From: Holosporaceae bacterium UBA7879
GTDB taxonomy: Bacteria; Pseudomonadota; Alphaproteobacteria; UBA7879
Reading direction: 5' to 3'
Assembly: GCA_002500565.1 (NCBI GenBank)
Contig: DLRV01000020.1
Coordinates: forward strand, 1 to 63,836
Length of the DNA: 63,836 nt
In this document: positions 6,927 to 63,836 of the stretch, piece after piece
Layout: every line of letters begins with the position of its first letter
Position numbering within the stretch: the stretch's first letter is position 1
The notes under the pieces: model-generated
What the model was told of the DNA's origin: nothing
Seen by the model: only the letters and a program-made list of their open reading frames with translations
The model's database searches: none
Made by a program: the position numbers and the translations under genes

Positions 6927-8267
6927 ATGTTTAAAAAAATTCTAATCGCTAATCGTGGTGAAATTGCTTTGCGTATTTATCGCGCCTGTCGTGAAATGAA
7001 CATACGCACTGTTGCTATACATTCAACGGCTGATGAAGATGCGATGCATGCACGCTTAGCGGATGAGTGTATTTGTATTGGTCCAGCAGCATCAAAAGAT
7101 AGCTACTTGAATAAAGCAGCCTTGTTAGCGGCTGTTGAAATTAGTGGCGCTGAAGCTGTGCACCCAGGTGTTGGGTTTTTATCTGAGAATGCTGACTTTG
7201 CTGAAATGGTTGAAGAGCATGGACAGGTATTTATTGGTCCTAAACCTGAGCATATTCGCCTTATGGGCGATAAAGTAACCGCCAAAGAAGCGATGATCAA
7301 GCTTGGTATTCCGGTTGTTCCCGGATCTGATGGGGTTGTTAACTCTTTATCAGAAGCACGTGAGATTGCGTCTAATATGGGGTATCCTGTCCTAGTCAAA
7401 GCAGCAGCTGGTGGCGGGGGGCGTGGCATGAAAGTAGCGCACAGTGAGAGCGAGCTTGAGGAAGCCTTTAATTTTGCCCGCTCAGAAGCGTTGGCTGGTT
7501 TTGGCGATGATTCAGTTTTTATTGAGAAATACCTTGAAAAGCCAAGGCATATTGAATTTCAGATCTTAGCAGATAAGCATGGCAACGCTGTTCATCTAGG
7601 AGAGCGTGATTGTTCGGTGCAGCGCCGCCACCAGAAAGTATGGGAAGAAGCGCCATCACCGGTTGTGACGCCAGAAATGCGGGCTGAAATGGGAGATAAG
7701 GTTGTTCAAGCCGTTAAAAACATGGGATATGTTGGCGCTGGAACCTTTGAATTTTTGTTTGAAAACGGTCAGTTTTATTTCATTGAGATGAATACCCGGA
7801 TTCAAGTTGAGCATCCAATATCCGAGATGATTACTGGTATTGACCTTGTGCAAGAACAAATCAAAGTTGCTTATGGGGAAAAGCTTTCTTTCACTCAAGA
7901 TGATATAAAGTTTTCGGGGCATGCGATTGAATGCCGTGTGAACGCTGAACACCCAGAGACTTTTATGCCATCACCGGGACTGGTTACTGATTACCATCCG
8001 CCAGGTGGATTGCACGTGCGTGTTGATAGTCCTATTTATACTGGTTATAAAATTCCACCCCATTATGATAGTTTAGTAGCAAAGCTTATCGTTTATGGAA
8101 AGGACCGACCTGAGTGTATTCGAAGACTCCACCGTGCTATTGAAGAGTTTGTTATTGGTGGTATTGAAACATTATTGCCATTACATAAGAAGCTCTCAGA
8201 GGATGAAGACATGCAAGCTGGTGATTATGATATCCATTGGCTTGAGCGAGAGTTTCTTAAAAAATAA
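6927..8267 (+). CDS. accC: Acetyl-CoA carboxylase biotin carboxylase subunit
   Basis: KILIANRGEIALRI, ATP-grasp glycine loop AAGGGGRGM, EMNTRIQVEHP. Typical length of 446 aa. Confidence 0.95.
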   Translation: MFKKILIANRGEIALRIYRACREMNIRTVAIHSTADEDAMHARLADECICIGPAASKDSYLNKAALLAAVEISGAEAVHPGVGFLSENADFAEMVEEHGQVFIGPKPEHIRLMGDKVTAKEAMIKLGIPVVPGSDGVVNSLSEAREIASNMGYPVLVKAAAGGGGRGMKVAHSESELEEAFNFARSEALAGFGDDSVFIEKYLEKPRHIEFQILADKHGNAVHLGERDCSVQRRHQKVWEEAPSPVVTPEMRAEMGDKVVQAVKNMGYVGAGTFEFLFENGQFYFIEMNTRIQVEHPISEMITGIDLVQEQIKVAYGEKLSFTQDDIKFSGHAIECRVNAEHPETFMPSPGLVTDYHPPGGLHVRVDSPIYTGYKIPPHYDSLVAKLIVYGKDRPECIRRLHRAIEEFVIGGIETLLPLHKKLSEDEDMQAGDYDIHWLEREFLKK

Positions 8268-8657
8268 CTAAATATCAATACCTTTCAAAACCAACTGAAT
8301 TACTTTAAGGCTGGCGTTATTGAAGGGGAAGTGTAGCTGTAGCGAGTCAAACAGTTCAGATCTCGTTTCTTGTTTTGTGTTGATAATGAACTCTTTTATC
8401 CAGGCTAAAATCAGCGGGTTATTACTTATTTCATCTAAAATATGTTCAAGCTTTACCTTGCTGTCTGATAGCTTTAATTGAGCAAGTGTTTCTGAGAGGG
8501 TGCTGCTTAGGTTGTTATGCAGTGTATCTTCTGTGAGATAGAGGATTAACAGAAAACGTTGAATTGGTGAATAATCATGCGGAATCATCGTATCATCTGA
8601 TACGATGGTGCCATATTTTTCAGCTAACAGTTGGTGCGCACGCGATGGGTTCGTCAT
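8268..8657 (-). CDS. Hypothetical small protein (129 aa), paralog of the next gene
   Basis: ATG-initiated ORF in an AT-rich island. Shares AxxHQxL near the N-terminus and NPL(I/L)L(A/K)W(I/F) in the C-terminal half with the 8709-9119 product. I recognise no domain. Confidence 0.6.
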   Translation of the reverse strand: MTNPSRAHQLLAEKYGTIVSDDTMIPHDYSPIQRFLLILYLTEDTLHNNLSSTLSETLAQLKLSDSKVKLEHILDEISNNPLILAWIKEFIINTKQETRSELFDSLQLHFPFNNASLKVIQLVLKGIDI

Positions 8658-8708
8658 TATAATTTCTTAATATACCATTAATACCAAGGTCTTTATATTG
8701 GTATTAAT

Positions 8709-9119
8709 TTATTTATTCAACCTTTGTTCTGCTTTATTTAGATATTTATTTAATGAAAAAAGTGAGATGAAAGATAGAATGCTCTTATCAACTGAGTCTT
8801 TTTTTTCTAGAGCTTTTACTAAACTGCCAAGCTCAGCAGAAGATCTTTCATTATAAAAAGCATTGAACCACTTTAGAAGTAAGGGGTTTTCTAAAAGGCA
8901 ATTAACAACATCGTCTGACGAAATACCATCAAAAACTTGTGCCATTTTATGATTAATTATATCGTTTAAAGGACTGGAATTAACGAGGCTAATAAATGTA
9001 AGAAGTGCATTTTCTGTTTTTGTATAAGAAAAGGGTTTGATCTCATCAATTTGTACAAAATCAGGAAATCTATCATGTAAAATTTGGTGGCCGTTGGCTG
9101 CGAGTGTACTAAGGTTCAT
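8709..9119 (-). CDS. Hypothetical small protein (about 136 aa), paralog of the previous gene
   Basis: The ORF track gives 8709..9128 with a TTG start. The first ATG is at 9119 (MNLSTL). Similar to the 8268-8657 product. Transcribed divergently from a LysR-type regulator. Confidence 0.6.
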   Translation of the reverse strand: MNLSTLAANGHQILHDRFPDFVQIDEIKPFSYTKTENALLTFISLVNSSPLNDIINHKMAQVFDGISSDDVVNCLLENPLLLKWFNAFYNERSSAELGSLVKALEKKDSVDKSILSFISLFSLNKYLNKAEQRLNK

Positions 9120-9249
9120 AATCTTCAATTGTTTAAGTTAATGACCATTTAGATACTTGTTATTGCTTTTCAAGGTTTCTTGCAAAAAAAATTAAAAAAA
9201 TCACCTCGAAAAATTCTGTATGTGGACCGCATAATAGGGAGTTTGCTAG

Positions 9250-10125
9250 ATGAATGATAGGCTTTTTTTGTTTTTTAACGATTGTTTAGAATTAAAAAAA
9301 ATTTCACTTATTTCAAAAAAGTATAAGTTGAAAGAGCACGCAATTCGCCGCCGCTTATCTGGTCTTGAAAGTGAGGTTGGCGAAAAGCTCTATACGATTA
9401 GGGAGCAGGAAATAAATTTAACAGAAAGTGGAAAAAAAATATTAAAACTGTTAAAAAATTCAGAGGATTTCAAGAATGCGCTTATTTTAAAAAAGGCTCT
9501 AGAAAGAAAAAAAACAGTTAATGTGCTTATATGCTCTGAGCTTGAGGACTATGCTTTGCCAACCTTTTTATCTTTCCTAGAGAATGGTGGTGCTATTGGA
9601 AAATTTTCTTATTATGTGTCTGATGCGTTAGGTGTAAGTTTGTTTTCTGATGTGATGCCGGACTTTTGCTTGTTTAGCGACAGTGATCTTTTCAAACACG
9701 TTTTTCAAAATCATAAAAAAATCATTCAAGAGAAAGTGAGCTTCTATGCATTAAGTGCCTATGTGAAGAAAAATGGAAACCCTAGCTCTTTAAGTGATTT
9801 AAAAAACCATACAGTTATTTTTACAAGCCAGCAAAAAAACAACATGAATGAGTCCTGCAAAAATTATTTGGAAGCTTTTGGAAAAATAATTGAGGTAACG
9901 GATGCTTTGAGCGTTAAGAGCTTAGTTGAAAAAGGGATTGCAATAGGTGCTTTGTCTGAGACTCTCTCTATACAGGCTAAAGGGCCGCTTATCCAAGTAT
10001 TGAAAGATCTGACCTTTACTTTAGATTTTTATTTCGGGTGTCATCCAAATTGGATTGAAGAAAAGCAGTTTAATAGCTTATTTTCTAATATGCGCGATGC
10101 TTTGAAAAGCAGGAGGGTGAGATGA
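9250..10125 (+). CDS. LysR-type transcriptional regulator (divergent sequence)
   Basis: N-terminal HTH pattern (ISLISKKYKLKEHAIRRRLSGLESEVGEKLYTIREQEINLTESGKKIL) and a substrate-binding-type C-terminal region of about 200 aa. Divergent from the small-protein pair. Confidence 0.7.
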   Translation: MNDRLFLFFNDCLELKKISLISKKYKLKEHAIRRRLSGLESEVGEKLYTIREQEINLTESGKKILKLLKNSEDFKNALILKKALERKKTVNVLICSELEDYALPTFLSFLENGGAIGKFSYYVSDALGVSLFSDVMPDFCLFSDSDLFKHVFQNHKKIIQEKVSFYALSAYVKKNGNPSSLSDLKNHTVIFTSQQKNNMNESCKNYLEAFGKIIEVTDALSVKSLVEKGIAIGALSETLSIQAKGPLIQVLKDLTFTLDFYFGCHPNWIEEKQFNSLFSNMRDALKSRRVR

Positions 10126-11018
10126 CCTCTATTTTCTCTGAACAGAATATTGAAACAATACTAAAAGTTTATCCAGCTTTATTGGCTTTAGGAAAACATC
10201 GAAATTATGAAAAGGCAGCTCAAGAAATTGGTCTTTCAGAGTCAGGGTTACGCGCACAGATTGATGATCTGGAGAGAGAAATTGGTGAAGGGGTTTTTAT
10301 TAAAATTCATCAAAAATTGTTTATCACGCCTCTTGGAGAGCAACTAATTAAGGTCTGTCAAAACTATCAATACAATAAAAATATTCTTTTAAAGCAGAAA
10401 GGATTTTCACCAAAAATTTTAACTGTTCAATTGACTGCGACGACTGAGAAATTATTTGGTGCTGACATTATCGATATTTTAATAAAATCATTTCCTGACT
10501 ATTCATTACAAATAAGGGTGTCGGAATCTTTGCCTGATTTTTCTACGGGAGAAATTGACATGGCTTTAAATTATTTTTATCAGGGGTCGAGCCCTGATAT
10601 TGATTCTTTTACTCTGACACGCTTTAAGCTGTTGTTGTATGCCTCCCAGCATTATTTAGATAAATCCCCTCCTTTAGATCATGCAGAGGATCTAAAAAAT
10701 CATGAACTTGTTGGCTATCAAGGCCAGCAAAATTCCATTATTGATTTGAACTGGTTTACGCGGTTGGTTCAACCAGAGACGTTGCCGCTAAACTTTATCA
10801 CGAGCTCAACTTTCTCTTTGATTTCTATGATAAAGAGAGGTGTTGGTATCGGATCTTTTGCCAGTCATGTAAAACGGTTTGCCAGAAAAGATTTAGTGCA
10901 TGTGCTTCCTCAATATGAAGGAAGTGGCCATACTCTTTATTGGATGTATAATAAACGAATAATAGATTTAGAAAAAATCCAATCAATTATTAACCCAATA
11001 AGAAGTATTTTTAACTAA
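10122..11018 (+). CDS. LysR-type transcriptional regulator
   Basis: HTH region NYEKAAQEIGLSESGLRAQIDDLEREIGEGVFIKIHQKLFITPLGEQL with an LTTR-sized C-terminal domain. Its start overlaps the upstream LTTR stop by 4 nt (ATGA). Confidence 0.75.
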   Translation: MTSIFSEQNIETILKVYPALLALGKHRNYEKAAQEIGLSESGLRAQIDDLEREIGEGVFIKIHQKLFITPLGEQLIKVCQNYQYNKNILLKQKGFSPKILTVQLTATTEKLFGADIIDILIKSFPDYSLQIRVSESLPDFSTGEIDMALNYFYQGSSPDIDSFTLTRFKLLLYASQHYLDKSPPLDHAEDLKNHELVGYQGQQNSIIDLNWFTRLVQPETLPLNFITSSTFSLISMIKRGVGIGSFASHVKRFARKDLVHVLPQYEGSGHTLYWMYNKRIIDLEKIQSIINPIRSIFN

Positions 11019-11084
11019 TCAGCTATCAAAGGTTGAATTTTTCCATTGCTCTTACTATTTGGTCAAAAAAATAGAGATAGAGTA

Positions 11085-11726
11085 ATGACTGAAAACTTCT
11101 TTAAAAAAATTAAAGAAGATGGTGTTGTGCTAATTAAAGCGGGATCGCACTGTTTTGATCAAAAAACACTTAAAAAAATTCAAGCGGTGTTTGACTTTAA
11201 TCAGCTTCTATATAAGCATGTTAGTAATAGTATGATTGATACAAAAGTTTCTGTTTATAATTATAAGCCAAAAACACCTGCAAGTTCTGAGTATGAATGT
11301 GAAAAGATTAAGTTATTGTTTTCAGAAGGCTTTAAAAACTTTATTCGCCAAGTCACAGATCTTGAACAGCCTTATATAGAGAGGTTGCAAGCCCATTACT
11401 ATATTGGCGGTAATTATATTGCTGCCCATGTGGATCAAGATGCGCAACCTTTTGTTAAGTATACTTTTATTCTTGGATTAGATTGTGATTATGATGGGGG
11501 TGAATTGGTTGTTCACCACCCTAAAAAAGGACTTATTCCGTATAAGATTGAACCAAATGACTTGTTGATTTTGGATGCACGCTATCGACATGAGGTGACT
11601 GAAATTACCAGAGGAAGACGTCATATGGTTATTGGCTTTATGATGGAAGAAAGCCAAGTGGGCGTTCCATATAAAATGAAGCTTAACGATGGTAAGAACG
11701 GATTTAAAGAGGGTGTTTCTTATTAA
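11085..11726 (+). CDS. 2-oxoglutarate/Fe(II)-dependent oxygenase (prolyl-4-hydroxylase-like)
   Basis: Facial triad H-x-D (AAHVDQD) plus distal His (RYRHEVTEI) and a downstream Arg (TRGRRHMV). ATG at 11085; the ORF track starts at TTG 11046. Followed by a strong terminator. Confidence 0.7.
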   Translation: MTENFFKKIKEDGVVLIKAGSHCFDQKTLKKIQAVFDFNQLLYKHVSNSMIDTKVSVYNYKPKTPASSEYECEKIKLLFSEGFKNFIRQVTDLEQPYIERLQAHYYIGGNYIAAHVDQDAQPFVKYTFILGLDCDYDGGELVVHHPKKGLIPYKIEPNDLLILDARYRHEVTEITRGRRHMVIGFMMEESQVGVPYKMKLNDGKNGFKEGVSY

Positions 11727-11749
11727 GTTTTCTTTATGATTACAAAATA

Positions 11750-11778
11750 AAAAACCAGGCAATTAGCCTGGTTTTTTT
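11750..11778 (+). terminator. Rho-independent terminator closing the island
   Basis: AAAAA-CCAGGC-aatta-GCCTGG-TTTTTTT: a perfect 6-bp GC-rich stem with a T7 tail, 24 nt after the oxygenase stop. Confidence 0.8.
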
Positions 11779-11923
11779 GTGCCTGCACCAAATTATCAAT
11801 TGTTATTGTCTGTGCCTCTATCGTTTTTCTTAATAGATGCGCGCTAATTTTAAAATTTATTTAGTTAGTAAATAGTTATTTTTTCTTACTTTTTAAGAAT
11901 CTAATACTTATTTTTGCATTATA

Positions 11924-11970
11924 TTCCATATTAATCCCATTGTTTCCCATGTGAAACCATGTTATACCAT
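11924..11970 (+). promoter_or_regulatory. Putative MraZ operator: phased CCAT (bottom strand ATGG) direct repeats
   Basis: Four consecutive 10-nt blocks end in CCAT (11937-40, 11947-50, 11957-60, 11967-70), with a fifth copy 1 nt out of register (11926-29). On the bottom strand these read ATGGGA, ATGGGA, ATGGTT and ATGGTA. They lie 33-80 nt upstream of the mraZ ATG. Confidence 0.5.
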
Positions 11971-12002
11971 AGATGGTTGTAATGTGTTGAAAACTGAGGT
12001 CT

Positions 12003-59992: not shown

Positions 59993-60923
59993 TCTCCTTT
60001 TTCAAAGGGCGGGCCAATAAATCTTGGATCAAATCTTTTGGGTTTTGGTTTTGGGTGACCATCTGGATAACAGCGGTGCAAATGGGCAGATCGACCGGAT
60101 GGCGTTGCAACAGCTTGACCAATGATCGGGCGGTGGAAACGCCCTCAACGGTGCCAATTTCATTTAGGGCATCAGCAACTGAATGACCATTGGCCAGCAT
60201 GTTGCCAAAGCGGAAGTTGCGGGAGGTGTGGCTGGTGCAGGTTAAGATGGTATCGCCCATGCCCGAGAGGCCGGCAAAGGTTTCAGCCTTAGCGCCAAGA
60301 TGAATGCCAAGGCGCATCATTTCATGGAGGCCGCGGGTCATAATAAGAGCTTGCATATTTTGCCCAAGTTTGGCGCCATGGCAATAGCCGGTGGCAATGG
60401 CAATAATATTTTTCAAGGCGCCACCAATTTGGATGCCAATTTGATCGGTGCAGTGATAGAGGCGCAGGGATTGTGGATTGAACATGGTTTGCAAGATTGG
60501 CCAAGATTGTGCCGGACAATATAAAGAGGCTGCAGCGCTGAGGCCACTGGCTATTTCATGGGCCAAATTTGGACCGGACAAAACAGATTGTGTCGCATTT
60601 GAAAAATACTTGTCATAGAGGGTGGAGAGAACCTGACCGGTGGATTGATCCAAGCCTTTGGTGGCGCTTATCAAGGTAGTTGGCTGTAGATTGACTTGTT
60701 GCATTTCAGCCAGAACGGATGCCAACGCGGCAGAGGGAATGGCAATGATAAGGTGCGGGCAATCTGCCAAATCAGTTAGGGTATCTGTGATGGGATAATC
60801 GGTTGGTAAGGTGATAGGATCGCGGGACCAAGCCAATACCAAATGGCCAGCCTGATGGGCAAGACCAGCCAGCGCGCTGCCCCAGGCCCCATAACCAACA
60901 ATGCCAAGATGTAATTTTTCCAT
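59970..60923 (-). CDS. gpsA: NAD(P)H-dependent glycerol-3-phosphate dehydrogenase
   Basis: Rossmann GIVGYGAWGSALA, GALKNIIAIATG, and LSGMGDTILTCTSHTSRNFRFG. Confidence 0.92.
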   Translation of the reverse strand: MEKLHLGIVGYGAWGSALAGLAHQAGHLVLAWSRDPITLPTDYPITDTLTDLADCPHLIIAIPSAALASVLAEMQQVNLQPTTLISATKGLDQSTGQVLSTLYDKYFSNATQSVLSGPNLAHEIASGLSAAASLYCPAQSWPILQTMFNPQSLRLYHCTDQIGIQIGGALKNIIAIATGYCHGAKLGQNMQALIMTRGLHEMMRLGIHLGAKAETFAGLSGMGDTILTCTSHTSRNFRFGNMLANGHSVADALNEIGTVEGVSTARSLVKLLQRHPVDLPICTAVIQMVTQNQNPKDLIQDLLARPLKKEIDDALPL

Positions 60924-60999
60924 GCCGTCACTTTATTTTTTATTGCTGCATAAATCAAGGAGGCTTTGAAGGGGTTATTACATGGATATGAAGTTGTAT

Positions 61000-61425
61000 G
61001 AGATTTTCGCGTTGTTTCTACGAAACTCCTCAGAATGACGTGTTCAGGTAGATGCTGCGCAAAACACCAGTCACCCTGAGGAAGGACGAAGTCCTGACGT
61101 GAGGGTCTTTACCATACAGTATTGAATCAGATTCTCACGTCGTTGCCATGCAACTCCTCAGAATGGCGTGTGTTCTGTAAAACGTGAGGGTCTAGTGAAA
61201 AGTGGATCAGACTCTCACGCGGATTAAAAATCCGCTCAGAATGACGGGTTCTAGAATGAGATCATCACGTCGTGGATTCTCCACTCCTCATGATGATGTG
61301 TTTTTTGTATGGCAAGAGAGATTGCCACGTCGGCCGCTGGCCTCTTTGCAATGACGGGTTTGGGGGGTGGCCGCATCAAACACCAGTCACCCTGAGGAGA
61401 AATGAAATTTCGACGTGAGGGTCTT
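61000..61425. repeat. Array A of ~40-nt double-stem palindromic modules (7 full copies plus 1 half)
   Basis: Modules at 61000-61040(+), 61069-61109(-), 61128-61168(+), 61208-61246(+), 61258-61298(+), 61318-61356(+) and 61385-61425(-), with a half module at 61180-61194. Consensus: GAGAT-NNN-CACGTCG-[hairpin]-CTCCTC-N'N'N'-ATGACG. Confidence 0.9.
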
Positions 61426-61553
61426 ATACGCAGCAAAAAGATGTTGCAGATTAGCAACTCTAGAGGAGTTTTTTTTGAATCCAACAGAGACATAGCCATT
61501 GACGGGAAATTTCTGTATGGTAACTTCAAATATAGATTTAATAGGGTTTTTAC

Positions 61554-62279
61554 ATGAAAAAAGTATCTTTATATGTGTTAGCTGGTCTAATGGCTGGTGG
61601 CGTGTCGGCAAAAGTTGACAGCGGTTTCTATGCCGGTGTTGGCGTGTCGATGAATAATAATAAGTATAAGCACAATGTGGTCACAACGGATAATAACCTT
61701 GTCCTTGATGCTGAGAGTTTTTCTAATAAGTTCTCAAAAAACACAGTTATGCCAGAAATTTTTGTGGGATACCTGTGTGTTGGGAAATCCTTTGCGTGGG
61801 CCCCTGAGCTGCATGTTGGCAACGACTTTGGTAAGCGCGATTCATATAACTTGGCTAATGATGCTGTTGACCTTTATCAAACAACAGAAGTTAAAAAGCG
61901 TTTGAATCTTGGCCTGGACATGAAATTAGGACGTATCGTTGAAGACAGCGCTTTTGTGTATGGTGTGCTTGGTTTAGACCTATCCCGGTATAAAGTTTCT
62001 TATCGCCAAGATGAGGTAGATGCCGCCGGGGCTGTGGACTCTACACGTACATTTAGTCCCTCCGCCAAATTTGTTCCAGGACTCAAGGTAGGGGCTGGGG
62101 CTGATGTTTATACGAACCAGAACCTGTTTATCGGCGGAGAAGTAAACTACACGTTCCGTTCTAAAAGCATTAAATCCAACAACCAAGCAGAAAATCTTGG
62201 TATGGATCAGAATGTAAATAATAAACTAAGACCAAAAAACAGCTTGGCTGTTAAGGTCAAAATTGGTTGGAAGTTTTAA
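61554..62279 (+). CDS. Outer-membrane beta-barrel protein (OMP_b-brl / Omp25-Omp31-like)
   Basis: Signal peptide MKKVSLYVLAGLMAGGVSA, FYAGVGV start strand, alternating hydrophobic pattern, C-terminal KIGWKF ending in Phe. Confidence 0.8.
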   Translation: MKKVSLYVLAGLMAGGVSAKVDSGFYAGVGVSMNNNKYKHNVVTTDNNLVLDAESFSNKFSKNTVMPEIFVGYLCVGKSFAWAPELHVGNDFGKRDSYNLANDAVDLYQTTEVKKRLNLGLDMKLGRIVEDSAFVYGVLGLDLSRYKVSYRQDEVDAAGAVDSTRTFSPSAKFVPGLKVGAGADVYTNQNLFIGGEVNYTFRSKSIKSNNQAENLGMDQNVNNKLRPKNSLAVKVKIGWKF

Positions 62280-62303
62280 AGTAATCTAACAGGGAGAGAG
62301 AAT

Positions 62304-63401
62304 ATGATGAAAAAAATTTTAACAGTTGGAGCTTTAGCAGCTCTGCTTAGTGGTGTGAATGCGGAAGCAATTCGTTTTGATCAAATCAAACAAAAAGCCG
62401 TGCGCAGTTCATTGGTCCAAACAGGGCTTAAGGCGGGTATGGACGAGCTGCAAGCAGCGGGCGTGCCCGTTTGGAGCTATTTTAAGTCTGAAAAAGACTT
62501 CTTGCCTTTGATTAAAGCTAAGAAGCAAGGCAAAGACCCACTGGCTGTATACTGGGCGCAGATTGATAAAAATGCCACGCGAGAAGAGAAAGAAAGAATG
62601 CTTCCTGGTGGGCCGGCAGCGGCAGCAGCAGACGCCTTGGGTATGGACAGATATGCCGGCAAAATAAAGGCTGAGAATTATCCTTACTTGTTAGGTAAGT
62701 TTGCTGATGCCATGGAAATTAAGAGAGGTCCAGATTTATCAAAGAGAGCAAAGGGTTTTCTGCGGAAGGCTAAAAACAATAATGCGTTTGCTTCTGCTTA
62801 TGAAATTAAGGATCCATATGAGTTAAACCGTCTTTATGCTGGAAATTTGAGGCAGGGTTTTTGGATAAAAAAAATCATATCTAATGATAGATTAATTCAG
62901 TACTTCAACACACAGGTGTTGCCAGCGGATGCTATTGCCAACGTTGGACCTGGGTCTTCTAGTGCGCAGTTCCAAAATGCCATTAAGCAAGTGTTCTATG
63001 TGATGCACATGCACAATCAAAACATCCGTCAGGATGGAAGTATGGTAGGCGGTACTAGAGAGTCAAGGGCCATACTCTTTACTGTAACAGGGGTCAATGA
63101 CCAAGGATATCGCGTAAGCTTCGTGAACCTTAGGGGTAGATTTCAACATGCTTTTGTGCCTTTCTTGGGCGCTATGCAAGGGCAATATAAACCCTTAAAA
63201 ATAGGGCAACTGTTGGTGGCCAAAATCAATTATGGCGTTAATCGTCAGCTTCAAAACTTAGATTTCCCAGGTAATGATAATCTTCAAGGTGAAATTAATG
63301 GTAATCAGTTTGATATAAACCCTAACATACCAGCAGGTGCTCAAGAAAATTATCGTTTAACACTACTGCCTATTATCAAAGGATTGGTTCCTGTTCGTTA
63401 A
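62304..63401 (+). CDS. Orphan exported protein (365 aa)
   Basis: Signal peptide MMKKILTVGALAALLSGVNA. I recognise no domain. Lies 24 nt after the OMP gene and is followed by a terminator. Confidence 0.7.
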   Translation: MMKKILTVGALAALLSGVNAEAIRFDQIKQKAVRSSLVQTGLKAGMDELQAAGVPVWSYFKSEKDFLPLIKAKKQGKDPLAVYWAQIDKNATREEKERMLPGGPAAAAADALGMDRYAGKIKAENYPYLLGKFADAMEIKRGPDLSKRAKGFLRKAKNNNAFASAYEIKDPYELNRLYAGNLRQGFWIKKIISNDRLIQYFNTQVLPADAIANVGPGSSSAQFQNAIKQVFYVMHMHNQNIRQDGSMVGGTRESRAILFTVTGVNDQGYRVSFVNLRGRFQHAFVPFLGAMQGQYKPLKIGQLLVAKINYGVNRQLQNLDFPGNDNLQGEINGNQFDINPNIPAGAQENYRLTLLPIIKGLVPVR

Positions 63402-63426
63402 CAATAATGAGTTAATTCTGAATTTA

Positions 63427-63452
63427 AAAACCCTGCTTCGGCAGGGTTTTTT
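63427..63452 (+). terminator. Rho-independent terminator of the OMP/orphan operon
   Basis: AAAAA-CCCTGC-ttcg-GCAGGG-TTTTTT: a UUCG-type tetraloop hairpin with a T6 tail. Confidence 0.85.
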
Positions 63453-63466
63453 GTTGGGCGTTAAAG

Positions 63467-63836
63467 GAGATTGCCACGTCGGTCGCTGGCCTCCTCGCAA
63501 TGATATGGAAAGGAATGAGATTCTTACGTCGTTTCTGCGAAACGCCTCAGAATGACGGGCTTGGAGGGTGGCCGCACAAAACACCAGTCACCCTGAGGAG
63601 AAATGAAATTTCGACGCGAGGGTCTTACCTACAGTGTTGAATCAGATTCTCGCGTCGTTGCTATGCAACTCCTCAGAATGACGTGTGTTCTGTAAGACGT
63701 GGGGGTCTAGTGAAAAGTGGATCAGATTCTCACACGGATTTTCAATCCGCTCAGAATGACGGGTTTTTTATTCTCAACTCCTTCAGAGTGACTGGTTTTT
63801 GGGTAAAACGCTTCAGAATTGTATAAGTTAAGAGAT
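63467..63836. repeat. Array B of the same module family (5 full, 1 degenerate and 2 partial copies), running to the window end
   Basis: Modules at 63467-63504(+), 63517-63557(+), 63586-63626(-), 63643-63683(+) and 63723-63761(+). A degenerate copy lies at 63768-63794, with partial copies at 63696-63710 and 63806-63818. Confidence 0.9.

What the first reader, a model, noticed from the sequence alone, without database searches (positions are those of the whole stretch)
61000..61425. Array of ~40-nt modules with conserved loops and two independently covarying stems
The gpsA-OMP intergenic region is packed with seven copies of one module, in both orientations. In the + orientation it reads GAGAT-NNN-CACGTCG-[hairpin with 4-7 bp stem and 3-nt loop]-CTCCTC-N'N'N'-ATGACG. 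The NNN/N'N'N' triplets differ between copies but are always complementary. They are tct/aga (61128), cat/atg (61258), tgc/gca (61318) and cct/agg (61069 and 61385). In the cct/agg copies the neighbouring T..A pair is also switched to C..G. The inner hairpins are all different yet all self-complementary: tttc-tac-gaaa, ttgc-cat-gcaa, gcggatt-aaa-aatccgc, gtgga-ttc-tccac, ggcc-gct-ggcc, aggac-gaa-gtcct and gaaat-gaa-atttc. Invariant unpaired segments (CACGTCG, CTCCTC) flanked by compensatory changes in two stems point to selection on a folded nucleic acid, either RNA or single-stranded DNA. This is not the pattern expected for a coding sequence or a plain sequence repeat. The window contains no transposase, integrase, RT or Cas gene. 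Possible identities are a REP/RAYT-like element, an IS200/IS605-derived MITE, or a structured RNA family. I cannot place it in a named family from the sequence alone.
Basis: partly seen in the sequence, partly recalled or inferred. Interest (0 to 1): 0.8.

Follow-up and report, generated by a model that had tools for sequence, protein, structure and literature searches.

The report
Hairpin repeats targeted by Ssn nucleases
The modules are real hairpin-forming DNA repeats of a family found across bacteria and phages, whose partner is a small GIY-YIG nuclease (Ssn, described in 2025) that cuts single-stranded DNA; this is a known kind of system in a two-tier form that the published search motif misses.

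Summary
The window carries 12 full and 2 partial copies of a ~45-nt module, in two clusters (60997-61428 and 63464-63763). The clusters flank an outer-membrane-protein gene and a secreted-protein gene. A covariance model built only from copies in other genomes finds 11 of them (E 2.5e-11 to 0.012) and nothing elsewhere in the window.

The same module occurs in more than 15 bacterial phyla and in phages. Its outer-stem triplets are Watson-Crick complementary in 128 of 134 genome copies and 87 of 95 viral copies. The inner hairpin is hypervariable but stays paired.

Read on the opposite strand, the module is (C/T)GTC-AT-NNN-GAGGAG-[hairpin]-CGACGTG-N'N'N'-AT-C. This is the tag and tail of "CGTC-tagged REPs" (Di Nocera 2013) and of Ssn-related motifs (Chenal 2025).

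In metagenomes and cultured genomes, 95-aa GIY-YIG genes (49% identical to Neisseria SsnA) sit between inverted modules. The elements are therefore most likely single-stranded-DNA hairpin sites for an Ssn nuclease acting in trans. They are not RNA and not RAYT/IS200 elements. No ssn gene lies in the window.

The two-tier architecture is not matched by the published SRM motif (0 of 145), so I rate it a new variant of a known kind, of modest interest.

The parts
60997..61042 (-). Module 1. The strand given is the one that reads 5'-CGTC tag ... CTC tail-3', which is the strand predicted to fold and be bound as ssDNA. CGTC ATTCT GAGGA G-TTTC-GTA-GAAA-C AACGCG AAAAT CTC. One C.A mismatch in the outer stem.
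   Evidence: (E 3.5e-06 with model R2)
61067..61112 (+). Module 2, ACCCT/AGGGT subtype. AGTC ACCCT GAGGA A-GGAC-GAA-GTCC-T GACGTG AGGGT CTT.
   Evidence: (E 0.0057)
61125..61170 (-). Module 3. CGCC (mutated tag) ATTCT GAGGA G-TTGC-ATG-GCAA-C GACGTG AGAAT CTG.
   Evidence: (E 3.5e-08)
61182..61193 (+). Partial module, 3' half only: ACGTGAGGGTCT.
   Evidence: (family D6)
61205..61248 (-). Module 4, variant without the GAGGAG/CGACGTG loop. CGTC ATTCT GA-GCGGATT-TTT-AATCCGC-GTG AGAGT CTG.
   Evidence: (E 1.1 with model R1; no match at E<=1 with R2); paralogue of 63720-63763
61255..61300 (-). Module 5. CATC (mutated tag) ATCAT GAGGA G-TGGA-GAA-TCCA-C GACGTG ATGAT CTC.
   Evidence: (E 8.4e-09)
61315..61358 (-). 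Module 6, canonical TGC/GCA subtype. CGTC ATTGC AAAGA G-GCC-AGC-GGC-C GACGTG GCAAT CTC.
   Evidence: (E 4.4e-08)
61383..61428 (+). Module 7, ACCCT/AGGGT subtype. AGTC ACCCT GAGGA G-AAAT-GAA-ATTT-C GACGTG AGGGT CTT.
   Evidence: (E 0.00021)
63464..63507 (-). Module 8. TATC (mutated tag) ATTGC GAGGA G-GCC-AGC-GAC-C GACGTG GCAAT CTC.
   Evidence: (E 2.5e-11)
63514..63559 (-). Module 9. CGTC ATTCT GAGGC G-TTTC-GCA-GAAA-C GACGTA AGAAT CTC. Paralogue of module 1.
   Evidence: (E 3.6e-08)
63584..63629 (+). Module 10. AGTC ACCCT GAGGA G-AAAT-GAA-ATTT-C GACGCG AGGGT CTT. Paralogue of module 7.
   Evidence: (E 0.0018)
63640..63685 (-). Module 11. CGTC ATTCT GAGGA G-TTGC-ATA-GCAA-C GACGCG AGAAT CTG. Paralogue of module 3.
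   Evidence: (E 2.5e-10)
63697..63708 (+). Partial module, 3' half only: ACGTGGGGGTCT.
63720..63763 (-). Module 12, variant. CGTC ATTCT GA-GCGGATT-GAA-AATCCGT-GTG AGAAT CTG.
   Evidence: (E 0.012)
63770..63836 (.). Degenerate module fragments (ATTCT..CTTCAGAGTGACTGG and CTTCAGAAT). Other assemblies of this population end 59-98 nt past the window end.
61554..63401 (+). The two genes bracketed by the clusters: a 241-aa outer-membrane beta-barrel protein (61554-62279) and a 365-aa protein with a signal peptide and no Pfam family (62304-63401). A 250-nt composite repeat block lies in direct orientation on both sides.

Best explanation
The modules are DNA-level palindromic repeats of the CGTC-tagged REP / Ssn-related-motif (SRM) superfamily, in a two-tier ('compound') form.

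Anatomy, shown here. On one strand each module reads: (C/T)GTC tag; a 5-bp outer stem that starts with AT; a purine-rich internal loop (GAGGA on one side, GACGTG on the other); a variable inner hairpin; the closing half of the outer stem; then C plus a short tail.

Mechanism, inferred. When that strand is single-stranded (during replication, repair or DNA uptake) it folds, and the folded form is the binding site of a small single-domain GIY-YIG nuclease of the Ssn family, encoded elsewhere in the genome. By analogy with Neisseria SsnA, the nuclease binds the hairpin plus the C after it and nicks the ssDNA a few nucleotides 5' of the GTC tag.

Autonomous form, shown in other genomes. A ~0.4-kb unit consists of an inverted module, then the ssn gene, then a module, with the tags facing outward. 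The copies in this window are gene-less derivatives (solo modules and inverted dimers) that have piled up and been duplicated as a 250-nt composite block on both sides of an outer-membrane-protein gene pair.

Not shown: whether the copies in this window still do anything. They could limit recombination of incoming ssDNA as in Neisseria, act as recombination substrates, or be passengers.
For: 1. Family membership. Triplets are complementary in 87/95 and 128/134 copies, in at least 8 types.

2. Model R2, built without any window sequence, recovers 11 window modules.

3. The (C/T)GTC tag, the AT start of the stem and the C after the palindrome are shared with NTS (CGTCATTCCCGCG..GCGGGAATC) and with CGTC REPs. 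The C is kept in 12 of 12 window modules and GTC in 9 of 12.

4. The partner gene is a GIY-YIG ORF (PF01541, E 1.4e-16) bracketed by inverted modules in Oscillospiraceae, a CPR bacterium, Omnitrophota and Sphingopyxis.

5. Of 80 metagenomic relatives, 53 of the 76 with an identifiable ORF have a module in the expected orientation within 150 nt by a loose regex (chance about 0.003 per flank). Model R1 gives 167 hits in 129 kb. A tag-plus-stem detector finds flanking modules at 76 of the 80 loci it could score, 63 of them compound.

6. That ORF is 49% identical (E 4e-30) to the 94-aa N. gonorrhoeae SsnA homologue.

7. In cultured genomes (S. meliloti, A. lipoferum, N. aromaticivorans, N. gonorrhoeae) the homologues are flanked by classical CGTC REPs.

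8. Strand asymmetry points to DNA.

9. Biochemistry from the literature: Ssn enzymes bind and cut ssDNA only, on one strand only, upstream of the motif (PMC11893778).
Against: - No ssn/GIY-YIG ORF lies in the 64-kb window, and I could not search the rest of this MAG. A cognate nuclease in this organism is therefore assumed, not shown.
- The published degenerate SRM motif matches none of the window modules and 0 of 145 compound modules. No Ssn enzyme has been tested on a compound module.
- Three window modules have mutated tags, and there are truncated copies, so part of the array may be decaying.
- Single modules fold only weakly in silico (z -0.1 to -2.9).
- Pairing in palindromes can be restored by template-switch correction (established knowledge), so the covariation does not by itself prove selection.
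Confidence: 0.75

Rival explanations
1. The modules are a structured RNA family (a cis-regulatory element, sRNA, or mRNA stabiliser/terminator) whose stems are kept by selection on the transcript.
For: There is strong covariation in two stems with conserved unpaired segments. Modules lie in intergenic regions, often just after or just before genes. REPs in E. coli are known to affect 3' UTRs (established knowledge).
Against: - No Rfam family matches, even at E<=10.
- Both orientations occur within one intergenic region, and across about 125 copies there is no orientation preference relative to flanking genes (++ 36, -- 53).
- G.T and A.C mismatches are equally common (13 against 18), so no single transcribed strand tolerates wobble pairs.
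- Loops are triloops of the DNA-stable C(GNA)G type, not UNCG or GNRA tetraloops.
- SsnA does not bind RNA (PMC11893778).
Confidence: 0.05
2. The modules are REP/REPIN elements mobilised by a RAYT (HUH Y1 transposase), or MITEs derived from IS200/IS605.
For: The anatomy is similar: a short palindrome with an unpaired tag, inverted dimers, arrays resembling BIMEs, and a dimer that folds as a long hairpin (z -3.9).
Against: - The tag is CGTC, not GTAG.
- Di Nocera et al. found that no RAYT or IS200 gene is flanked by CGTC repeats.
- In every locus where a gene sits between inverted modules, that gene is a GIY-YIG nuclease.
- All-against-all comparison of ORFs next to 120 genome copies found no recurrent transposase.
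Confidence: 0.04
3. The modules and the nuclease are associated for the opposite reason. The ssn gene is a homing-endonuclease-like invader that targets pre-existing module dimers, using the modules as homology arms. The modules themselves spread or persist by some other route: recombination, template switching, or another enzyme.
For: - GIY-YIG enzymes are nucleases with no known strand-transfer activity (established knowledge).
- The gene sits exactly in the linker position of an inverted dimer, and its stop codon often overlaps the start of the module (TGAGATTGC, TAGATTGC).
- Most modules, including all those in this window and in phages, have no gene nearby.
- ssn genes appear inside housekeeping operons: gyrB|gyrA, sufB|sufC, gltA|lpxB.
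Against: Chenal et al. show that the enzyme specifically binds and cuts at the motif, and that 81% of genomes with more than 200 SRMs carry ssn. That fits a mobiliser or a domesticated partner equally well. Nothing in my data separates the two directions.
Confidence: 0.15

Closest known systems
Ssn-related motifs (SRM), including the Neisseria NTS, with their Ssn GIY-YIG ssDNA nucleases (Chenal et al., Nat Commun 2025, PMC11893778)
   Same: - An oriented hairpin repeat with a (C/T)GTC tag 5' of a palindrome that starts with AT, and a C right after the palindrome.
- Hundreds of copies, clustered, rarely inside genes, and often around membrane-protein genes.
- The architecture motif-ssn-motif. 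The partner proteins are homologous (49% identity to the gonococcal SsnA homologue).
   Different: - The stem is not continuous. Five outer base pairs are followed by a conserved purine-rich 5x6 internal loop and a hypervariable inner hairpin, giving 41-47 nt (up to about 60 nt elsewhere).
- The published search motif HGTCWYN(0-2)YYVSBRHN(0-5)WNVSBRGN(0-2)RNCYNB matches 0 of 145 compound modules.
- No enzyme has been tested on this form.
- No ssn gene lies in this window.
CGTC-tagged REPs (Di Nocera, De Gregorio and Rocco, BMC Genomics 2013, PMC3733652). This class includes Neisseria dRS3 and Rickettsia RPE-4 and RPE-6.
   Same: A terminal CGTC/TGTC tag, AT as the first two stem pairs, a short unpaired tail, inverted dimers and clusters, and occurrence in many phyla.
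   Different: Those families have continuous 8-9-bp stems, 4-5-nt loops and a CCA tail. Here the stem is interrupted and the tail is CTC, CTG or CTT. That paper reported no dedicated enzyme.
REP/REPIN-RAYT systems and BIMEs of gamma-proteobacteria
   Same: They work alike in outline: ssDNA hairpins with an unpaired tag, inverted pairs, mosaic arrays, and a single partner nuclease gene flanked by the repeats.
   Different: The tag is different (GTAG) and the enzyme fold is unrelated (HUH Y1 transposase against GIY-YIG). REPs are species-specific, whereas this module keeps nearly the same sequence across phyla and in phages.
Neisserial intergenic mosaic elements (NIMEs)
   Same: Arrays of oriented hairpin repeats separated by 20-150-nt linkers, flanking surface-protein genes. 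In this window the clusters bracket an OMP beta-barrel gene.
   Different: The repeat sequence and the host differ. Here a 250-nt composite block is directly repeated on both sides of the genes.

Membership tests
Ssn-related motif (SRM/NTS) repeats | A hairpin-forming inverted repeat of 20-50 nt | tested here: met
   Two nested helices, 93.3% paired over 145 copies, with controls. The two-tier fold is the minimum-free-energy structure for several window copies on the CGTC strand.
Ssn-related motif (SRM/NTS) repeats | Orientation given by GTC just 5' of the palindrome (needed for cleavage) and a C just 3' of it (needed for binding) | tested here: met
   The C is present in 12 of 12 window modules and GTC in 9 of 12; the other three read GCC, ATC and ATC. 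Both positions were part of, or adjacent to, the search pattern for the external copies.
Ssn-related motif (SRM/NTS) repeats | Match to the published degenerate SRM search sequence | tested here: not met
   0 hits in the window, 0 of 145 compound modules, and 3 of 80 Ssn-homologue loci. The same regex does find the Neisseria, Azospirillum and Sinorhizobium repeats.
Ssn-related motif (SRM/NTS) repeats | The repeats flank genes of the Ssn GIY-YIG family | tested here: met
   Met at family level; homology to SsnA. For this window itself the test is not met, because there is no GIY-YIG ORF. The rest of the genome could not be searched.
Ssn-related motif (SRM/NTS) repeats | Bound and cut as ssDNA, on one strand only, by the cognate Ssn | not testable with these tools
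   Indirect evidence only: C(GNA)G loops occur exclusively on the CGTC strand.
CGTC-tagged REPs (Di Nocera 2013) | A terminal unpaired CGTC (or TGTC/CCTC) tag and a stem that begins with A-T, T-A | tested here: met
   The ACCCT subtype has AC in place of AT, with a compensating GT on the other side.
CGTC-tagged REPs (Di Nocera 2013) | A continuous 8-9-bp stem, a 4-5-nt loop and a CCA tail | tested here: not met
   A 5-bp outer stem, an internal loop, then an inner hairpin with a 3-nt loop. The tail is CTC, CTG or CTT.
REP/REPIN-RAYT | A GTAG tag and a RAYT (Y1 HUH) gene flanked by the repeats | tested here: not met
   There is no GTAG tag. The flanked gene is GIY-YIG. No recurrent transposase lies next to 120 genome copies.
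IS200/IS605-derived MITE (PATE) | Subterminal hairpins that match the ends of a resident IS200/IS605 element | tested here: inconclusive
   No such gene was seen next to modules in any locus. I did not scan the window's ORFs for tnpA systematically.
Rfam structured RNA families | Match to a curated covariance model | tested here: not met
   No match on the modules at gathering threshold or at E<=10, either for the window or for canonical copies in 15 other loci.

The most novel reading that the evidence does not exclude
The two-tier module (5-bp AT-started outer stem, conserved GAGGA/GACGTG purine loop, free inner hairpin with C(GNA)G loops) is a distinct class of Ssn substrate. It may be the commonest one in uncultured phyla (Chloroflexota, CPR, Bacteroidota, Bacillota, Omnitrophota), and it also occurs in phages. 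It is invisible to the published SRM motif. If so, Ssn-repeat systems are much more widespread than the RefSeq survey showed. It would also mean that one branch of these 95-aa enzymes reads an internal loop rather than a continuous stem, which would offer new ssDNA-cutting specificities.
Probability: 0.5. Interest if true: 0.5.

Novelty: new variant of a known kind. Interest (0 to 1): 0.35.

Why it matters
For annotation, these modules break assemblies: several contigs of this population end inside the clusters. They also generate spurious 'hypothetical proteins' (EIA..LLAMT and RHCEE..DVAIS peptides) in very many genomes, so a covariance model for them would clean up annotation.

For biology, they mark where an Ssn-type ssDNA nuclease would act. 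Here that is on both sides of an outer-membrane-protein gene pair, the same layout that in Neisseria lowers recombination of incoming DNA.

For the Ssn field, the compound form extends the known motif space and the known taxonomic range. It suggests enzymes with a new recognition mode, which matters for the ssDNA tools proposed for this family.

Tried and rejected
- Rfam, at gathering threshold and at E<=10, on the window and on canonical copies: nothing on the modules.
- tRNA/tmRNA scan: none.
- Paper searches for the peptide PRNDG and for the DNA strings: only primer coincidences, including one primer that happens to lie in a module upstream of a soil beta-lactamase gene.
- CRISPR, TIGR arrays, type III antitoxin repeats and integron attC were considered while reading the sequence and dropped. 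Spacing is irregular, the variable parts are self-complementary, and there is no GTTRRRY/RYYYAAC core.
- All-against-all clustering of ORFs next to modules found no recurrent neighbour: viral loci, genome loci.
- A strict GIY-YIG regex found only 2 genes. phmmer then found 4 loci, and that opened the lead.
- Wobble asymmetry as an RNA-strand test gave no asymmetry.
- A viral-contig scan for Ssn relatives found only one distant hit.
- Comparing four assemblies of this locus for presence or absence of modules: all identical.
- Before finding Chenal et al., I briefly thought the GIY-YIG association was new. It was published in 2025 (onward).

Full report
**What is in the window.**
A second cluster of five full modules, one partial module and some fragments starts 60 nt after the next gene pair, at 63464.

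The window comes from a marine (Tara Oceans) MAG. Four public assemblies are identical over 60801-63836. One of them ends inside cluster 1 and three end just after cluster 2, as expected for repeats that break assemblies.

The two clusters are partly paralogous. 60998-61250 aligns with 63515-63765 at 87% identity, and 61350-61426 aligns with 63551-63627 at 93.5%. A composite block is therefore directly repeated on both sides of the two genes. Within that block one module (61067 against 63584) has a completely different inner hairpin.

**Is it more than chance?**
- In IMG/VR it gave 95 matches. In 87 of them the two triplets are Watson-Crick complementary, where chance is 1 in 64.
Of these, 128 are complementary, in eight types: TGC/GCA 94, TCT/AGA 18, CGC/GCG 11, plus TAC, TCC, GGT, TAT and CCT.
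- The hosts span Chloroflexota, Bacteroidota, Bacillota, Patescibacteria, Omnitrophota, Pseudomonadota (including a Rickettsiales symbiont), Actinomycetota, Gemmatimonadota, Nitrospirota and others.

On an alignment of 145 distinct copies, the named two-helix structure is 93.3% paired. Column shuffles give 72.3% (0 of 500 reach the observed value), and slid partners give 31-54%. Eight of nine pairs show changes on both sides.

A covariance model built only from the 135 non-window copies finds 11 window modules with E from 2.5e-11 to 0.012. It finds nothing else in the other 62 kb.

**RNA or DNA?**
Rfam has nothing on the modules. The modules show no fixed orientation relative to neighbouring genes; this used crude ORF calls and gave ++ 36, -- 53, +- 18, -+ 17. 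Both orientations occur side by side. G.T and A.C mismatches in the stems are equally frequent, 13 against 18, so neither strand shows the wobble tolerance expected of a transcript.

The loops, however, are strongly asymmetric. That statement rests on my own knowledge and was not checked here.

**The partner gene.**
On that strand the module reads (C/T)GTC-AT-NNN-GAGGA-G[hairpin]C-GACGTG-N'N'N'-AT-C-TC.

Clustering of neighbouring ORFs gave no recurrent family. A phmmer search for small GIY-YIG proteins, however, found four genome loci in which such a gene lies directly between two inverted modules with the GTC tags outward. The hosts are an Oscillospiraceae, a Falkowbacteria (CPR), an Omnitrophota and a Sphingopyxis.

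The protein is PF01541 (E 1.4e-16), and its nearest solved relative is the UPF0213 protein 1ZG2. It has more than 8000 close homologues, mostly on very short contigs. Near-identical genes sit in unrelated places, such as gyrB|gyrA and racemase|AMP-ligase, each time as a ~410-bp unit of module-gene-module.

I then collected 80 metagenomic relatives.
- 53 of the 76 with an identifiable ORF have a module in the expected orientation within 150 nt by a loose regex. My estimate of chance is about 0.003 per flank.
- Model R1 gives 167 hits in 129 kb, in 53 loci.
- A detector for tag, 5-bp stem and trailing C finds flanking modules at 76 of the 80 loci it could score; these comprise 74 of the metagenomic relatives plus six further Ssn loci. 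63 of them are of the interrupted-stem type.
- The stop codon of the gene often overlaps the first bases of the downstream module.

**What this is called.**
Two papers settle the identity.

Di Nocera et al. (2013, PMC3733652) defined 'CGTC-tagged REPs'. These have a CGTC tag, a stem starting with AT and a short tail. They include Neisseria dRS3 and Rickettsia RPE-4 and RPE-6, occur mostly in alpha-proteobacteria, and were 'apparently lacking a dedicated transposase'.

Chenal et al. (2025, PMC11893778) showed the following:
- The Neisseria NTS (CGTCATTCCCGCGMAVGCGGGAATCYRG) and related 'SRM' hairpins are associated with a 94-aa single-domain GIY-YIG protein, SsnA (cd10448).
- SsnA binds the motif as ssDNA only, on one strand only, and not as RNA or dsDNA.
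- It cuts a few nucleotides upstream.
- The three bases before the palindrome matter for cutting, and the C after the palindrome matters for binding.
- 71% of homologues have SRMs nearby.
- NTS-ssnA-NTS looks like an insertion sequence.
- NTS clusters surround membrane-protein genes.
- SsnA lowers transformation by DNA that carries NTS.

My GIY-YIG protein is 49% identical (E 4e-30) to the gonococcal 94-aa homologue. tblastn finds homologues in Neisseria, Sinorhizobium meliloti, Azospirillum lipoferum, Sphingobium and Novosphingobium. Neisseria, Sinorhizobium meliloti, Azospirillum lipoferum and Sphingobium are among the CGTC-REP hosts named in the 2013 paper. In the four I looked at (Neisseria, S. 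meliloti, A. lipoferum, Novosphingobium), the homologues are flanked by classical CGTC REPs.

**How this differs from the described forms.**
The window modules keep the tag, the AT start and the trailing C. Their stem, however, is interrupted after 5 bp by a conserved purine-rich internal loop and continues as a free inner hairpin.

The published degenerate SRM motif matches none of the window modules, none of the 145 aligned copies, and only 3 of the 80 metagenomic Ssn loci. The same motif does find the Neisseria, Azospirillum and Sinorhizobium repeats.

Shorter relatives such as GTCATTCTGA-GCGGAGC-GAAGAATCTC suggest a graded series, in which tandem G.A pairs bridge the outer stem to a GCGNAGC mini-hairpin. 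This last point is inference.

**Most likely mechanism.**
*Shown here:* the anatomy, the covariation, the strand-specific loops, the association with Ssn-family genes across phyla, and the layout around an OMP gene pair.

*Taken from the literature:* Ssn enzymes are ssDNA-specific, strand-specific nucleases that cut upstream of the motif.

*Inferred:*
- An Ssn encoded elsewhere in this genome recognises these compound modules.
- The three modules with altered tags (61125, 61255, 63464) would be bound but poorly cut.
- The arrays grew by local duplication and recombination.
- The clusters may limit or shape recombination at the flanked surface-protein genes.

An inverted dimer (61067-61170) can also fold as one long branched hairpin (z -3.9), as REPINs do. 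I could not decide whether Ssn mobilises the modules or merely homes into module dimers.

**Limits.**
- The set of 80 Ssn loci was seeded from compound-associated proteins, so the 63-to-6 ratio of compound to simple overstates how common compound motifs are.
- Covariation in palindromes can arise from template-switch correction as well as from selection.

**Verdict.**
This is a real feature that was well observed. It belongs to a family known since 2013 and 2025, in an architectural variant that the published motif does not capture. Interest is modest.

Noticed in passing
window 60998-61250 and 63515-63765: A 250-nt composite block of four to five modules plus linkers is directly repeated (87% identity) on both sides of the OMP and secreted-protein gene pair. 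This could support deletion or duplication of those genes by homologous recombination.
   Followed up: partly
window 61067-61112 against 63584-63629: Within otherwise homologous blocks, one module has a wholly different inner hairpin (AGGAC-GAA-GTCCT against GAAAT-GAA-ATTTC) while its flanks are conserved. The hairpin appears to have been replaced as a unit rather than by point changes.
   Followed up: no
window 61202-61354 (+), 61251-61529 (-), 63500-63640 (+): ORFs of 46-92 aa are just translations of the repeats (peptides such as RFLRRFCETPQNDG and PVTLRRNEIST). Such ORFs are likely to be annotated as hypothetical proteins in many genomes.
   Followed up: partly
L039 3863-3904 and 4975-5016; L025 2706-2741 and 3794-3829: Canonical modules sit between structural genes of bona fide phages: terminase large subunit, portal and major head protein by PHROGs. 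In L039 they are in sense orientation and in L025 antisense. Why phages carry sites for an ssDNA nuclease is unexplained.
   Followed up: partly
L312 (A. lipoferum plasmid AZO_p3), L313 (S. meliloti pSymB record), L210-L219: ssn genes with their repeats are inserted inside housekeeping gene pairs: sufB|sufC, gltA|lpxB and gyrB|gyrA.
   Followed up: partly
L105 2690-2870: The CPR (Falkowbacteria) ssn gene is split by a ~180-nt insertion that is itself a long palindrome. This looks like a different MITE-like element.
   Followed up: no
L212 960-1470: Upstream of an Oscillospiraceae ssn gene there are three tandem ~145-nt units. Each consists of a compound module, a ~50-nt linker and a simpler module of opposite orientation (GAGATTCCCACGGCCCGTTGGGCCTCGGAATGAC). 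Compound and near-simple forms therefore coexist in one array.
   Followed up: no
window 63424-63451: A clean intrinsic terminator (AAAAACCCTGCTTCGGCAGGGTTTTTT) follows the 365-aa ORF, just before cluster 2. It caused the only weak Rfam hits in the region (rsmX and istR, both below threshold).
   Followed up: yes
window 8001-12000: G+C content drops to 0.34 here, against about 0.42-0.47 elsewhere. A ~1-kb stretch with no long ORF lies at 8268-9249.
   Followed up: no
PMC8066302, Table 5: A primer designed 150 nt upstream of a soil-metagenome beta-lactamase gene (GAGATTGCTTCGTCGCTCTG) lies in one of these modules.
   Followed up: no
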